DNA from: a virus
Taxonomy: Duplodnaviria; Caudoviricetes
Direction: 5' to 3' (one strand)
DNA: 63,229 nt
Virus record (IMG/VR): IMGVR_UViG_3300046004_000392
Location: 1-63,229 of that record
How positions within the stretch are numbered: the stretch's first letter is position 1; each line of letters starts with the position of its first letter. The notes beneath the pieces are model-generated. The model worked only from the letters and a program-made list of their open reading frames with translations. It was not told where the DNA came from and made no database searches. The position numbers and the translations under genes were made by a program. Positions 9,667 through 11,864 of the stretch are shown piece after piece.

Positions 9667-10581
9667 ATGGCTATTTCACGCGCACAGCTCCTTAAAGAGC
9701 TACTACCAGGTCTGAACGCTTTGTTCGGTTTGGAATACAAACGTTACGGCGAAGAGCATCAAGAGATTTACGAAACTGAATCTTCTGAGCGTTCATTCGA
9801 GGAAGAAACAAAATTGTCTGGCTTCTCAGCAGCTCCTGTTAAAAACGAAGGCAACGCCATCGCTTATGACAATGCTCAAGAAGCTTGGACAGCTCGCTAC
9901 ACACACGAAACTATCGCTTTAGGCTTCAGCTTGACTGAAGAAGCAGTAGAAGATAACTTGTATGACACTTTATCTGCTCGCTACACTAAAGCATTAGCTC
10001 GTGGTATGGCTTACACAAAACAAGTTAAAGCAGCTAACGTATTGAACAACGGTTTCAACACCTCTGGTTCATACAACGGCGGCGACGGTGTGCCACTATT
10101 CAGTGCATCTCACCCACTTGTTACTGGCGGTACAAACAGCAACATTCCAACCACTCCAGCAGACTTGAACGAAACTTCATTGGAAAATGCAGTTATTCAA
10201 ATCGCAGCTTGGACTGACGAACGTGGCCTATTGATCGCTGCTAAACCTCGTAAATTGGTTGTTCCACCAGCATTGCAATTCGTTGCAACTCGCTTGTTGG
10301 AAACTGAATTACGTGTTGGCACTGCTGACAACGATATCAACGCATTGAAAAACAACGGTTCAATCCCAGAAGGTTACGCAATTAACCACTTCTTGACTGA
10401 CTCAAATGCTTGGTTCTTGACAACAGACGTACCTAACGGTATGAAACACTTTGTACGTACTCCATTAGCAACATCAATGGATGGCGACTTCGATACTGGT
10501 AACGTTCGTTATAAAGCACGTGAGCGTTATTCATTCGGTTGGTCTGATCCATTAGGTATGTACGGTTCAGCTGGCGCTTAA
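9667..10581 (+). CDS. Major capsid protein
   Basis: MAISRAQLLKELLPGLNALFG start and RYKARERYSFGWSD end; biased codons; AGGAG SD; terminator follows. Confidence 0.9.
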   Translation: MAISRAQLLKELLPGLNALFGLEYKRYGEEHQEIYETESSERSFEEETKLSGFSAAPVKNEGNAIAYDNAQEAWTARYTHETIALGFSLTEEAVEDNLYDTLSARYTKALARGMAYTKQVKAANVLNNGFNTSGSYNGGDGVPLFSASHPLVTGGTNSNIPTTPADLNETSLENAVIQIAAWTDERGLLIAAKPRKLVVPPALQFVATRLLETELRVGTADNDINALKNNGSIPEGYAINHFLTDSNAWFLTTDVPNGMKHFVRTPLATSMDGDFDTGNVRYKARERYSFGWSDPLGMYGSAGA

Positions 10582-10598
10582 TAAACGCTAGGTAAGAC

Positions 10599-10627
10599 AA
10601 AAGGGCTCACTTCGGTGGGCCTTTTTT
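10599..10627 (+). terminator. Intrinsic terminator after MCP
   Basis: GGGCTCAC-TTCG-GTGGGCCT followed by a T run. Confidence 0.85.
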
Positions 10628-10716
10628 AATGGTTTTCTCTATGGTGATATGTACAGAAAAGCGCAGAATTCGTACATGTACATAATGACGTGTACAAATT
10701 TTAAAGGATTATAATC

Positions 10717-10788
10717 ATGTGGACATCACCAGCAGCTACTGAAATGCGTTTCGGTTTTGAAGTAACAATGTACGTAATGAACAAATAG
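10717..10788 (+). CDS. pqqA: Coenzyme PQQ precursor peptide PqqA (MWTSPAATEMRFGFEVTMYVMNK)
   Basis: 23-aa ORF with AAGGA SD; MW-x-x-P leader, RFGFE and the E-x-x-x-Y core that becomes PQQ. Confidence 0.95.
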   Translation: MWTSPAATEMRFGFEVTMYVMNK

Positions 10789-10808
10789 TCTAAACATTTG
10801 TTTAAACA

Positions 10809-10898
10809 TAGGCGGTTAAGCCGACACTAGAGGATGTAGTAAGTAACGAGTTTTTCGGCTTTCTGCGTTACATGTAACAACTACCAAATCTACGCCTA
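10809..10898 (+). ncRNA. Candidate structured RNA 3' of pqqA
   Basis: Nested pairings TAGGCG/CGCCTA, TAGA/TCTA, GTAGT/ACTAC, GTAACG/CGTTAC. Confidence 0.35.
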
Positions 10899-11267
10899 CC
10901 TTTCTGTAATTAGGCCTTCTTTTAATTTACGTTCTTCGTGATGGTGTTTGCGGTGACAATTAGCGCATAGCACTATGCATTTGGCTTCTATTTCTTCGCG
11001 GGCTATCTTATAAGCTCCGTTCTGAACTAATTCACTTATCTTTCTATTGGCGGGATCGGGTACTACGTGGTGGAAGTCTAATGCTGCCGGGTGGTTTTCA
11101 CCGCAGTTGGCACACGCTAACGAGGCTTTATAGTTTTCCCATTGGATTCTTTTCTTTATCTTACCTAACCTAATTCGTTCTATCTGAGCTGGCTTATTAC
11201 TGTCGTAGTGCTTCTTAGAATATAGCTTTGCTTTTGCCTTGCGAACTTCTAGGTCTTTGTAGGGCAT
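10896..11267 (-). CDS. HNH endonuclease (Zn-binding), antisense within the late arm
   Basis: CANC...LDFHH...CANCHRKHH; likely start MPYKD at 11267 with GGAG SD. Confidence 0.85.
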   Translation of the reverse strand: MPYKDLEVRKAKAKLYSKKHYDSNKPAQIERIRLGKIKKRIQWENYKASLACANCGENHPAALDFHHVVPDPANRKISELVQNGAYKIAREEIEAKCIVLCANCHRKHHHEERKLKEGLITER

Positions 11268-11285
11268 AAATACTCCACTAATCTG

Positions 11286-11314
11286 TTGACACCAAAACAA
11301 TAACATAGTATAAA
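11286..11314 (+). promoter_or_regulatory. Sigma70 promoter
   Basis: TTGACA-N17-TATAAA; predicted start ~11321. Confidence 0.7.
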
Positions 11315-11320
11315 GACTGT

Positions 11321-11400
11321 ATCAACCGGGAAATTAAATCCGGCTCATTAGACTGCCCCGGCGGACGCATACAAGACTAATGAGCTTACTTTGTATGGAG
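11321..11400 (+). ncRNA. Candidate double-pseudoknot cis-regulatory leader RNA
   Basis: Three crossing helices: 11326-30/11357-61, 11343-51/11377-85, 11368-75/11390-97; the last abuts the GGAG SD. Confidence 0.55.
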
Positions 11401-11408
11401 AAATTCAA

Positions 11409-11864
11409 ATGGCATTTACCACATTCAGCGGTCCAGTTCGTTCATTAGCAGGTTTCGTAGAACCTGTAATATACATCAAAGCTACAGACGTAGTATCAGG
11501 TGCAGTTAATGTTTCTGCAACAGGTAACATCGTAATCCTTTCACCAGCAGATGGTGGCCCAGCTTCAACATGTACATTAGTATTACCAGAAGTAGTAAGC
11601 GGTGATTTCACCCTAACTTCACAACCAGCCGATGCTCGTTACAATGGCGCTAAAGGTACTATCTTGAACTACGGCGCAGTTGATCACGTTTTAGGCGGCT
11701 ACGGCACTAATGACTCAACATCAACAGCAGGCCAAAAAGTTAACGGCTCTACAGCTGGTGTAGTTATCCCCGCAGGTTACGGCGTTCAATTCGGTGGTAA
11801 TGGTAACGACGCAGCACCTTGGGCCGCTACTAACTCAGTATTGTCCACAGCTAACACATTCTAA
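11409..11864 (+). CDS. Putative virion structural protein (MAFTTFSGPVRS...)
   Basis: ATG at 11409 after GGAG; beta-rich, G/T/A-rich. Confidence 0.7.
   Translation: MAFTTFSGPVRSLAGFVEPVIYIKATDVVSGAVNVSATGNIVILSPADGGPASTCTLVLPEVVSGDFTLTSQPADARYNGAKGTILNYGAVDHVLGGYGTNDSTSTAGQKVNGSTAGVVIPAGYGVQFGGNGNDAAPWAATNSVLSTANTF

What the first reader, a model, noticed from the sequence alone, without database searches (positions are those of the whole stretch)
10717..10788. Phage-encoded PqqA: a cofactor-precursor peptide placed right behind the major capsid gene
Seen: an unannotated 23-codon ORF MWTSPAATEMRFGFEVTMYVMNK with an SD, just after the MCP terminator. I see no pqqB-E in the genome. Established: PqqA supplies the Glu and Tyr of its ExxxY motif, which host PqqE/D cross-link on the way to PQQ, the cofactor of methanol dehydrogenases (XoxF/MxaF). 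One peptide is consumed per cofactor. Inference: the phage supplies the consumable substrate to sustain methanol oxidation during infection, or the peptide titrates PqqD/E. From memory the peptide resembles Methylophilaceae PqqA, which suggests the host. I recall viral pqqA being reported from freshwater metagenomes, so this may not be wholly new, but gene callers routinely miss it.
Basis: partly seen in the sequence, partly recalled or inferred. Interest (0 to 1): 0.85.

Follow-up and report, generated by a model that had tools for sequence, protein, structure and literature searches.

The report
Phage copy of PQQ precursor gene

Summary
The 23-codon ORF at 10717-10788 (+) has a Shine-Dalgarno site and lies 91 nt after the capsid-gene terminator. 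It scores above the curated cut-offs of Pfam PqqA and NCBIfam TIGR02107. The window is a complete phage genome with terminal repeats. It has no pqqB, pqqC, pqqD, pqqE or methanol dehydrogenase gene.

The peptide matches the commonest Methylophilaceae PqqA at 22 of 23 residues, and the DNA matches a Methylotenera copy at 70 of 72 bases. These hosts carry 3-7 pqqA copies per genome and one pqqE.

The gene is accessory. Four of 72 assessable capsid relatives have it at this site, and five near-complete relatives lack it entirely. Lone pqqA also occurs in at least 120 viral contigs of many backgrounds. All five cultured Methylophilales phages tested have it, unannotated on its own strand.

The most likely role is to supply substrate to the host's PQQ enzymes. 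Expression of the phage copy was not shown.

Viral pqqA is in print (Coutinho 2020), and this scan found it before on other DNA. A conserved, phage-specific element of about 86 nt follows pqqA and is unexplained.

The parts
9667..10581 (+). Major capsid protein gene (304 aa), the upstream neighbour of pqqA
   Evidence: Matches phrog_371, major head protein. 74% aa identity to the annotated capsid protein of Pag-Yong1 and 64% to the capsid proteins of Pelagibacter phages HTVC023P and HTVC027P.
10599..10626 (+). Intrinsic-terminator-like hairpin (12 pairs, 4-nt loop) followed by a T-run, ending the capsid transcript
   Evidence: The only terminator-like site in 10300-11500.
10627..10702 (+). Spacer between terminator and ribosome-binding site. 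It holds short palindromes and is conserved in several pqqA-bearing relatives. It may hold a promoter, but none was recognised.
   Evidence: Alignment with L130, L195, L177 and L114. blastn gave 87.5% over 88 nt to L130. No sigma-70-like site at the scan's threshold; best score 8 of 12 in my own scan.
10703..10708 (+). Shine-Dalgarno sequence AAAGGA, 8 nt before the ATG
   Evidence: Read. The same AGGA-type site, at the same distance, is the only conserved upstream feature in 116 bacterial and 109 viral copies.
10717..10788 (+). pqqA: 23 codons plus stop, with Glu15 and Tyr19 in the E-x-x-x-Y core
   Evidence: 22 of 23 residues identical to the commonest Methylophilaceae peptides. 70 of 72 nt identical to a Methylotenera chromosomal copy.
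10810..10897 (+). Conserved, phage-specific element of about 86 nt downstream of pqqA. It is a candidate structured RNA of unknown function.
   Evidence: Its 21-mer (10828-10848) occurs in 103 viral contigs. pqqA lies within 400 nt upstream in 88 of the 97 contigs with enough flank. Nucleotide diversity is 0.040 against 0.252 at pqqA third codon positions. A five-helix pseudoknot model has 99.3% of cells paired and 3 pairs changed on both sides. No Rfam family matches it at E <= 1. It was not found in 50,697 GenBank phage records. Among 301 Methylophilaceae genomes only one chance match appeared.
10896..11306 (-). HNH endonuclease gene (136 aa) on the opposite strand. It is a separately mobile neighbour, not part of the pqqA unit.
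   Evidence: Matches phrog_2255 and phrog_3106. Present in 6 of 80 capsid relatives: 4 without pqqA and 2 with it. L002 and L006 have pqqA but no HNH gene.

Best explanation
This is a real pqqA gene, captured from a Methylophilaceae host (most like Methylotenera) and kept as a small accessory cassette in the variable spot behind the capsid gene of a lytic-type 63-kb tailed phage.

Proposed mechanism:
- The phage makes the 23-residue peptide during infection.
- The host's own PqqD/PqqE and then PqqB/C/F process it into PQQ.
- The phage thereby replaces the one component of the pathway that is consumed stoichiometrically, and whose supply would fail first if host transcription declines.
- This keeps the periplasmic PQQ-dependent methanol dehydrogenases loaded, and energy flowing, until lysis.

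Shown here: the identity of the gene, its intactness, its near-identity to host copies, purifying selection on the peptide within phage lineages, the absence of the other pqq genes from the phage, multi-copy and unlinked pqqA in hosts, and recurrence in unrelated Methylophilales phages.

Inferred: that the phage copy is expressed, that the host enzymes process its peptide, and that this benefits the phage.
For: Identity:
- Pfam PF08042 37.9 bits and TIGR02107 34.4 bits, both above cut-off.
- Glu15 and Tyr19 are intact.

Genuine phage context:
- Complete record with terminal repeats.
- pqqA lies between the capsid gene and virion genes; terminase, portal and a family A DNA polymerase are present.

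The host supplies the enzymes:
- No PqqB, C, D or E and no PQQ alcohol dehydrogenase in the phage.
- Each of 5 Methylophilaceae genomes has one pqqE above cut-off.

Hosts already use extra, unlinked copies:
- 3, 7, 5, 5 and 4 pqqA copies in those 5 genomes. In 2 of them no copy lies near pqqE. All copies within a genome encode the same peptide.
- Beck et al. 2014 (PMC4109929, passages read) report 3-12 pqqA copies and single pqqB-G genes.

A substrate rather than a variant:
- 22 of 23 residues match the two commonest host peptides.
- 70 of 72 nt match a Methylotenera copy. The similarity covers 87 nt, including the ribosome-binding site, and that 48-kb host contig shares no phage protein with the window.

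Selection within phages:
- Nine cassettes share a phage-specific 3' flank, so they descend from a phage-borne copy. They differ at 15 nt sites, 11 of them third codon positions. dN is 0.026 and dS 0.605. All amino-acid changes lie in residues 3-7.
- Across 119 viral copies, diversity by codon position is 0.082/0.081/0.327.

Translation signal:
- The same Shine-Dalgarno site at the same distance is conserved in 109 viral and 116 bacterial copies.

Recurrence:
Their neighbours fall into 106 protein clusters.
- Only 12 of 50,697 GenBank phage records match, and 9 of those are phages isolated on Methylophilales or Methylophilaceae.
- 5 of 5 of those isolates tested pass the Pfam cut-off.

Clustering in this lineage:
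- On the capsid tree, pqqA presence needs 4 changes against a shuffled mean of 8.6 (0 of 500 shuffles as low).
- The window sits in a clade of 4 rows that are all pqqA-positive.
Against: - Expression of this copy is not shown. In four metatranscriptome runs, the contigs that cover the ORF run on into unlike sequence at both of its ends, so they come from other pqqA loci.
- The gene lies behind a strong terminator, and I found no recognisable sigma-70 promoter before it.
- The window copy lacks the hairpin plus T-run that follows 99 of 109 bacterial and 64 of 105 viral copies.
- The gene is dispensable for the lineage. Only 4 of 72 assessable relatives have it at this site, 5 near-complete relatives lack it anywhere, and 3 related isolates lack it.
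- PQQ is a recycled cofactor, so it is not established that new synthesis matters within one infection cycle (my reasoning).
- High third-position diversity could partly reflect repeated exchange with host copies rather than long-term selection in phages.
Confidence: 0.6

Rival explanations
1. Passenger or recombination anchor. The 72-nt gene is host DNA picked up by chance. It persists because it is short and harmless, or because its identity to a multi-copy host sequence promotes recombination with the host or between co-infecting phages. The peptide itself would do nothing for the phage.
For: The site behind the capsid gene is hypervariable: the gap to the next recognisable gene ranges from 480 to 2569 nt among relatives. 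The gene is patchy, present in 4 of 72. It is 93% identical over 87 nt to a host copy. Synonymous diversity in pqqA (0.252) far exceeds that of the adjacent non-coding element (0.040), as repeated exchange with host alleles would produce.
Against: The ORF with its Shine-Dalgarno site is intact in all 120 viral stretches examined and in 5 of 5 cultured Methylophilales phages of unrelated types. dN/dS is 0.04 among cassettes that share a phage-only flank. A pure DNA-homology role would not preserve the reading frame and start signals so uniformly.
Confidence: 0.13
2. Another use of the product. The peptide, or the PQQ made from it, or the small mRNA, serves something other than keeping methanol oxidation going. 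Examples are redox protection, signalling, or soaking up a host regulator of pqqA expression.
For: Nothing in the sequence ties the gene to methanol dehydrogenase in particular, and the phage has no PQQ-dependent dehydrogenase. A conserved non-coding element of about 86 nt travels with the gene, which hints at RNA-level function.
Against: The hosts are methylotrophs whose primary energy enzymes need PQQ (established knowledge; Beck et al. 2014). T4-like Baikal phages carry pqqA together with a methanol dehydrogenase gene (Coutinho et al. 2020). Most viral copies lack the 3' element, which was in 8 of the first 123 viral pqqA loci.
Confidence: 0.12
3. Decoy. The phage peptide binds PqqD/PqqE unproductively and shuts down host PQQ synthesis.
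For: A peptide without the rest of the pathway could in principle compete with the host's peptides.
Against: The peptide differs from the commonest host peptides at a single residue (position 4), which also varies among hosts (Thr, Lys). The Glu and Tyr of the core and everything from residue 8 onward are invariant among related cassettes. A decoy should differ where chemistry happens.
Confidence: 0.04
4. Attachment site. The phage copy is an attP that matches host pqqA genes, so that integration regenerates an intact host gene, as many temperate phages do with tRNA genes.
For: It is a short host gene present in many chromosomal copies, with a full-length near-identical copy in the phage.
Against: The complete genome has no tyrosine integrase (PF00589) or serine recombinase (PF00239) at E <= 1. 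pqqA sits in the virion module. It also occurs in the Kyanoviridae myovirus Melnitz. The best-matching host contig has no phage genes beside its pqqA.
Confidence: 0.03

Closest known systems
Dispersed 'orphan' pqqA copies of Methylophilaceae (Pfam PF08042, NCBIfam TIGR02107)
   Same: Same length (23 aa). 22 of 23 residues identical. Same Shine-Dalgarno site and spacing. A stand-alone gene away from pqqBCDE.
   Different: It sits in a phage virion module rather than a chromosome. Residue 4 is Ser where hosts mostly have Thr or Lys. It lacks the hairpin plus T-run that follows 99 of 109 host copies, and is instead followed by a phage-specific element of about 86 nt.
Viral PqqA of Lake Baikal virus population VP_266 (Coutinho et al. 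2020, Microbiome 8:163, PMC7678222; section 9 read)
   Same: A virus-encoded PqqA precursor peptide in freshwater phages predicted to infect Methylophilaceae, proposed to boost PQQ supply for methanol oxidation.
   Different: The Baikal viruses are T4-like, have 35% GC and also carry a methanol dehydrogenase gene. This phage is a 63-kb relative of the HTVC023P/Pag-Yong1 capsid group, has about 44% GC and carries no dehydrogenase. I did not compare sequences with VP_266 because I did not hold its sequence.
pqqA, unannotated on its own strand, in cultured Methylophilales phages (P19250A, Venkman, MEP301, MEP401/402, Melnitz)
   Same: A lone, intact 23-24-codon pqqA with a Shine-Dalgarno site and no other pqq gene nearby. 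All 5 tested pass the Pfam cut-off.
   Different: The phage types are unrelated to this one and the positions differ: near recombination genes in P19250A, Venkman and MEP301, and beside tRNA genes in Melnitz. None has the 3' element. The papers on MEP301, MEP401/402 and Melnitz do not mention a phage pqq gene in their main text; I could not see their supplements.
Cyanophage psbA-type auxiliary metabolic genes (recalled; not tested here)
   Same: The logic is the same: the phage carries its own copy of a fast-turnover host component, so that energy production outlasts the decline of host gene expression.
   Different: psbA encodes a full-size protein that acts directly. Here the product is a 23-residue precursor that is destroyed in making a cofactor and depends wholly on host enzymes.

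Membership tests
PqqA (PQQ precursor peptide; PF08042 / TIGR02107) | Match to the curated family models above their cut-offs | tested here: met
   PF08042: 37.9 bits (cut-off 21.1), profile positions 1-19 of 19. TIGR02107: 34.4 bits (cut-off 20), positions 1-21 of 21.
PqqA (PQQ precursor peptide; PF08042 / TIGR02107) | Short peptide with the Glu and Tyr of an E-x-x-x-Y core that become PQQ | tested here: met
   23 aa with Glu15 and Tyr19. Both are invariant in 9 related cassettes.
PqqA (PQQ precursor peptide; PF08042 / TIGR02107) | Encoded next to pqqB-E (the classical operon arrangement) | tested here: not met
   No PqqB, C, D or E in the whole phage genome. This feature is not required of members: in 2 of 5 Methylophilaceae genomes no pqqA copy lies near pqqE.
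PqqA (PQQ precursor peptide; PF08042 / TIGR02107) | Bound by PqqD, cross-linked by PqqE and converted to PQQ | not testable with these tools
   Needs biochemistry or complementation. At 23 aa the peptide is below the 30-residue minimum of the complex predictor, so no job was sent.
Auxiliary metabolic gene of a phage | Host-derived metabolic gene inside a genuine viral genome, flanked by viral genes | tested here: met
   Complete genome with terminal repeats. Capsid gene upstream; HNH gene and virion genes downstream. Closest DNA match is a Methylotenera chromosomal copy.
Auxiliary metabolic gene of a phage | Maintained by selection in phages | tested here: met
   dN 0.026 and dS 0.605 among cassettes with a phage-only flank. 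Third-position diversity is 4 times that of positions 1 and 2 in 119 viral copies.
Auxiliary metabolic gene of a phage | Expressed during infection, with an effect on host metabolism | tested here: inconclusive
   The RNA-library contigs over the ORF belong to other pqqA loci (loose ends at 10714-10717 and 10784-10789). One contig about 90% alike spans 10760-10898. Contigs cannot show level or strand.
Group I intron (RF00028) | Score at or above the family's gathering threshold, with the catalytic core present | tested here: not met
   24.6 bits against a gathering score of 50. 88 core model positions are replaced by 15 nt. The hit disappears when the search window is changed.

The most novel reading that the evidence does not exclude
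pqqA would be the signature host-takeover gene of phages that infect Methylophilaceae, playing the role psbA plays in cyanophages. On this reading, precursor-peptide supply limits PQQ, and so energy, in infected methylotrophs, and unrelated phages have acquired the gene independently. In this lineage it would move as a cassette together with a conserved pseudoknotted RNA of about 86 nt that stabilises or controls the tiny mRNA. That RNA would be a new RNA family.
Probability: 0.3. Interest if true: 0.7.

Novelty: new member of a known kind. Interest (0 to 1): 0.5.

Why it matters
If the mechanism holds, a phage can steer a cofactor pathway with a 72-nt gene by supplying only the consumable precursor and leaving every enzyme to the host. 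That would be one of the smallest auxiliary metabolic genes known.

Practical consequences:
- Gene callers and viral annotation pipelines miss the gene (no feature on its strand in the 5 GenBank records opened), so viral influence on methanol turnover in lakes and coastal seas is under-counted.
- The gene is a cheap host marker. In 50,697 GenBank phage records it is almost confined to phages isolated on Methylophilales.
- Cultured phage-host pairs exist, so the hypothesis can be tested directly.

Tried and rejected
Group I intron. A weak Rfam hit (RF00028, 24.6 bits against a gathering score of 50) spans 10598-10811, beside an HNH gene. I rejected it for four reasons. It vanished when the search window was 10400-11400. 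The alignment lacks most of the catalytic core. The capsid ORF is full-length without splicing. The part that resembles the core is simply the 3' end of pqqA.

HNH and pqqA as one mobile unit. Rejected: HNH occurs in 6 of 80 relatives, 4 of them without pqqA, and 2 pqqA-bearing relatives lack it. An earlier count said 7; a recount gives 6.

Own promoter. The consensus scan found none before pqqA. My scan of 150 nt upstream found no enrichment of sigma-70-like pairs in 109 bacterial or 105 viral copies, and no conserved upstream position beyond the ribosome-binding site. How the gene is transcribed remains open.

Simple stable fold of the 3' element. The nested minimum-energy fold is no better than shuffles (z 0.05). 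Only a pseudoknotted model fits the variation, and I derived that model from the same sequences.

Metatranscriptomes.
- Bins 10602-10711, between the terminator and pqqA, have almost no cover in the four RNA runs.
- Contigs over the capsid gene stop near 10565-10605.
- The very high depth on the ORF cannot be credited to this phage, because those contigs continue into unlike flanks.

Habitat. 14 DNA runs labelled lake water hold at least half of the sampled words of 9667-11306. One of them may be the source sample. None was laid.

The single match of the 3' element's 21-mer in 301 Methylophilaceae genomes has unrelated flanks, no pqqA and no phage proteins. I treat it as chance.

Denominators I could not get:
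- The total number of viral contigs with pqqA (the scan stops at 120 rows).
- The number of Methylophilales phage records in the GenBank collection that lack a match. NCBI taxonomy lists further names (MEP431-434, HIM624-A, phiMB624-A, Venkman EXVC038S, MG-MTP1, RSA-MFP1) that I could not check.

No structure or complex prediction was run, because the peptide is below the size limits.

Full report
**What is there**

The window is a whole virus record of 63,229 bases with direct terminal repeats, rated 100% complete. GC content is about 0.41-0.49 in 3-kb windows, and there is no tRNA gene. It encodes:
- a large terminase, a portal protein and a major capsid protein;
- a family A DNA polymerase, a DUF927 primase-helicase-like protein and an SNF2 helicase.

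The capsid protein (9667-10581) is 74% identical to that of Planktothrix phage Pag-Yong1, 65% to that of lake phage DSL-LC04 and 64% to those of Pelagibacter phages HTVC023P and HTVC027P.

The capsid gene ends at a 12-pair hairpin with a T-run at 10599-10626, the only terminator-like site in 10300-11500. After a 76-nt spacer comes AAAGGA at 10703-10708. An HNH endonuclease gene lies on the other strand at 10896-11306.

**Is it PqqA, and is it more than chance?**

- Pfam PqqA gives 37.9 bits (cut-off 21.1, E 1.7e-9) over the whole 19-position profile.
- The NCBIfam equivalog model TIGR02107 gives 34.4 bits (cut-off 20).
- A six-frame scan of the genome finds this one site, at E 1.1e-9 per genome.
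- Glu15 and Tyr19 form the E-x-x-x-Y core.

The rest of the pathway is absent. PqqD, radical SAM (PqqE), the PqqC family, PqqB and the PQQ alcohol dehydrogenase family gave no match at E <= 1.

**Where it came from**

I back-translated residues 9-19 of the peptide into a DNA pattern and scanned one genome per prokaryotic species. By record title:
- 91 of the 120 are named Methylophilaceae or Methylophilales (Methylotenera, Methylophilus, Methylobacillus, Methylovorus, Pseudomethylobacillus, Novimethylophilus, Ca. Methylopumilus, OM43);
- 24 carry only higher-rank names;
- 5 carry other names (an Acidovorax caeni bin twice, Rhodocyclaceae, Pseudomonadales, Gammaproteobacteria).

The pattern was built from the phage peptide, so it selects this type. 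The point is which organisms own that type.

Among 129 peptides read from those loci, the two commonest (52 and 29 copies) differ from the phage peptide only at residue 4. At the DNA level the best matches are 70 of 72 nt, to a Methylotenera bin and to a Methylophilaceae bin. The similarity to the Methylotenera copy runs over 87 nt (93%), including the ribosome-binding site. That 48-kb host contig (GC 42.4%) shares no phage protein with the window. The likely host is therefore a Methylotenera-like member of the Methylophilaceae. Fourteen DNA runs labelled lake water hold at least half of the sampled words of this stretch.

**How hosts use pqqA**

Five Methylophilaceae genomes hold 3, 7, 5, 5 and 4 pqqA copies and one pqqE each. 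In three of them one copy lies 2.3-2.5 kb upstream of pqqE. In Ca. Methylopumilus universalis and Methylophilus rhizosphaerae no copy is near pqqE. All copies within a genome encode the same peptide. This agrees with Beck et al. 2014 (PMC4109929, passages read), who report 3-12 pqqA copies and single pqqB-G genes.

A pqqA encoded away from the enzymes is therefore the normal state in these hosts. The multiplicity suggests that precursor supply matters.

**How the gene is distributed among phages**

Within the window's own lineage it is accessory:
- Of the 80 best capsid relatives (86-96% aa identity), 8 have too little downstream sequence to judge. Four of the other 72 have pqqA right behind the capsid gene.
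- Five near-complete relatives have no PqqA match anywhere, using the same search that found the gene in the window.
- The related isolates Pag-Yong1, DSL-LC04 and HTVC023P also lack it.
- The gap between the capsid gene and the next recognisable gene ranges from 480 to 2569 nt, so this is an insertion hot spot.

I built a capsid tree of 85 rows. Four of them were added by a pqqA-directed search, so the tree gives no frequency; two partial capsids were dropped. The 9 pqqA-positive rows need 4 changes against a shuffled mean of 8.6 (0 of 500 shuffles as low). The window forms a clade with three other positive rows, with SH-aLRT support of 94.

Beyond this lineage the gene is common:
Nearly all hits encode the same Methylophilaceae-type peptide.
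- The genes flanking pqqA in 121 loci fall into 106 clusters. These include this capsid (10 loci), endolysin-like proteins (13 and 7), a T4-type RegA repressor (5), Erf recombinases (5) and a T4-type major head protein (4).
- In 50,697 GenBank phage records only 12 match. Nine are phages isolated on Methylophilales or Methylophilaceae (P19250A, Venkman, MEP301, MEP401, MEP402 and four Melnitz records), one is an uncultured spring phage, and two are weak Acinetobacter-labelled records.
- Five of five tested isolates pass the Pfam cut-off, with intact ORFs and Shine-Dalgarno sites.
- In the five isolate records I opened, no feature is annotated on the gene's strand. In Melnitz, a CDS on the opposite strand overlaps it.

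**Selection**

- Across 119 viral copies, diversity by codon position is 0.082/0.081/0.327. In 124 bacterial copies it is 0.064/0.093/0.358.
- Fresh captures from hosts could mimic this pattern. I therefore also compared nine cassettes that share a phage-only 3' flank. They differ at 15 sites (11 at third positions), with dN 0.026 and dS 0.605. All amino-acid changes fall in residues 3-7.
- The ribosome-binding site is the only conserved upstream feature in both viral and bacterial copies.

**Expression**

This test was inconclusive. Contigs of four metatranscriptome runs from three studies cover the capsid gene, some without a single difference. The contigs over the pqqA ORF continue into unlike sequence just outside it, so they belong to host or other phage copies. 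One contig about 90% alike spans 10760-10898. Contigs show neither strand nor level, and DNA can be present in RNA libraries.

**Mechanism and rivals**

The best-supported reading is substrate supply to the host's PqqD/E and later enzymes. The identity, origin, selection and host-side logic are shown; expression, processing and benefit are inferred.
- Decoy: disfavoured, because the peptide is the host's substrate in all but one variable residue.
- Attachment site: disfavoured, because the genome has no integrase or serine recombinase.
- Passenger or recombination-anchor role: not excluded, but it explains the uniformly intact frame and start signals poorly.

**A linked element**

Directly after pqqA, at 10810-10897, lies a stretch with sharp borders.
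- Its 21-nt core occurs in 103 viral contigs. pqqA lies within 400 nt upstream in 88 of the 97 with enough flank.
- 86 of the 103 contigs share a protein with the window, so the element belongs mostly to this lineage.
- In 85 cassettes its diversity, leaving out the 21-mer used to find it, is 0.040. That compares with 0.252 at pqqA third positions.
- A five-helix pseudoknot model keeps 99.3% of cells paired. Three pairs change on both sides, and the outermost pair switches between A-U and G-C in 16 rows. With partners slid by 1-3 columns, pairing drops to 33-44%.
- No Rfam family matches it at E <= 1. It is in no GenBank phage record. It was not found in 120 bacterial pqqA loci, and in 301 Methylophilaceae genomes only one chance match appeared.

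Caveats: the model was derived from these same sequences, retrieval required an exact 21-mer, and variation is low. It is a candidate structured RNA of unknown role, not a demonstrated one.

**Comparison with what is known, and verdict**

- Virus-encoded PqqA was reported by Coutinho et al. 2020 in T4-like, 35% GC Baikal phages of Methylophilaceae that also carry methanol dehydrogenase (section 9 read).
- That paper states that phage P19250A has none of their auxiliary genes. P19250A does carry an unannotated pqqA.
- A 2026 sediment study lists viral pqqA, pqqD and pqqE (PMC13188868, passages read).
- The main texts of the MEP301, MEP401/402 and Melnitz papers do not mention a phage pqq gene.
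- Searches for pqqA with 'phage', with 'auxiliary metabolic', and for PQQ with Methylophilaceae and phage found no paper that states the gene is general in these phages.
- This scan had already noted phage pqqA in at least 16 other genomes, with the same conclusions. I reached mine before reading those notes.

The finding is real and correctly read. It is a new member of a known kind, in a different phage lineage and a defined hot spot. The linked conserved element is the only part that looks new.

Noticed in passing
window 10810-10897 (+): A sharply bounded element of about 86 nt right after pqqA. It is near-invariant in 94 viral contigs although adjacent synonymous sites vary. It fits a five-helix pseudoknot, matches no Rfam family, and was not found in hosts or GenBank phages.
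   Followed up: partly
L177:2708-2789 (+): The closest relative (capsid 99% identical) has a tRNA-Tyr (anticodon GTA) inserted between the capsid gene and pqqA. The window has none there, and no tRNA gene at all.
   Followed up: partly
window 10627-10702 (+): The spacer between the capsid terminator and pqqA holds short palindromes (GTACATGTAC, GTGTACA). It is conserved in L130, L195, L177 and L114. It may be a phage promoter or a binding site.
   Followed up: no
window 10896-11306 (-): An HNH endonuclease gene abuts the 3' element. Homologues occur in 6 of 80 capsid relatives, independently of pqqA, which suggests a free-standing homing endonuclease using the same hot spot.
   Followed up: partly
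L356-L360 (GenBank KX815270, MT375522, MW452941, OP830906, MZ577097): Cultured Methylophilales phages P19250A, Venkman, MEP301, MEP401 and Melnitz each hold an intact pqqA that is not annotated on its strand. In Melnitz a 'hypothetical protein' CDS on the opposite strand overlaps it and is probably a mis-call.
   Followed up: yes
G006 (Ca. Methylopumilus universalis) and G009 (Methylophilus rhizosphaerae): In these two host genomes none of the 3 or 5 pqqA copies lies near the single pqqE, so the pathway runs entirely on unlinked precursor genes.
   Followed up: partly
GenBank OQ594354, OL906435, PP438419 (rows H1-H3): Three phage records assigned to different cyanobacterial hosts (Synechococcus, Planktothrix, Planktothricoides) have the same length (65,014 bases) and the same capsid match. 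They may be one phage, perhaps of a heterotroph in the cultures.
   Followed up: no
window 10712-10821, runs X15, X16, X18: In lake metatranscriptome assemblies the bins over the pqqA ORF carry some of the largest summed contig depths of the stretch laid. The contigs continue into several different flanks, so they come from several pqqA loci other than this one. Contig depth is only a rough guide to abundance.
   Followed up: no
window 10598-10811 (+): A weak, unstable Rfam match to the group I intron model (24.6 bits, gathering score 50) beside an HNH gene. I judged it a chance resemblance.
   Followed up: yes
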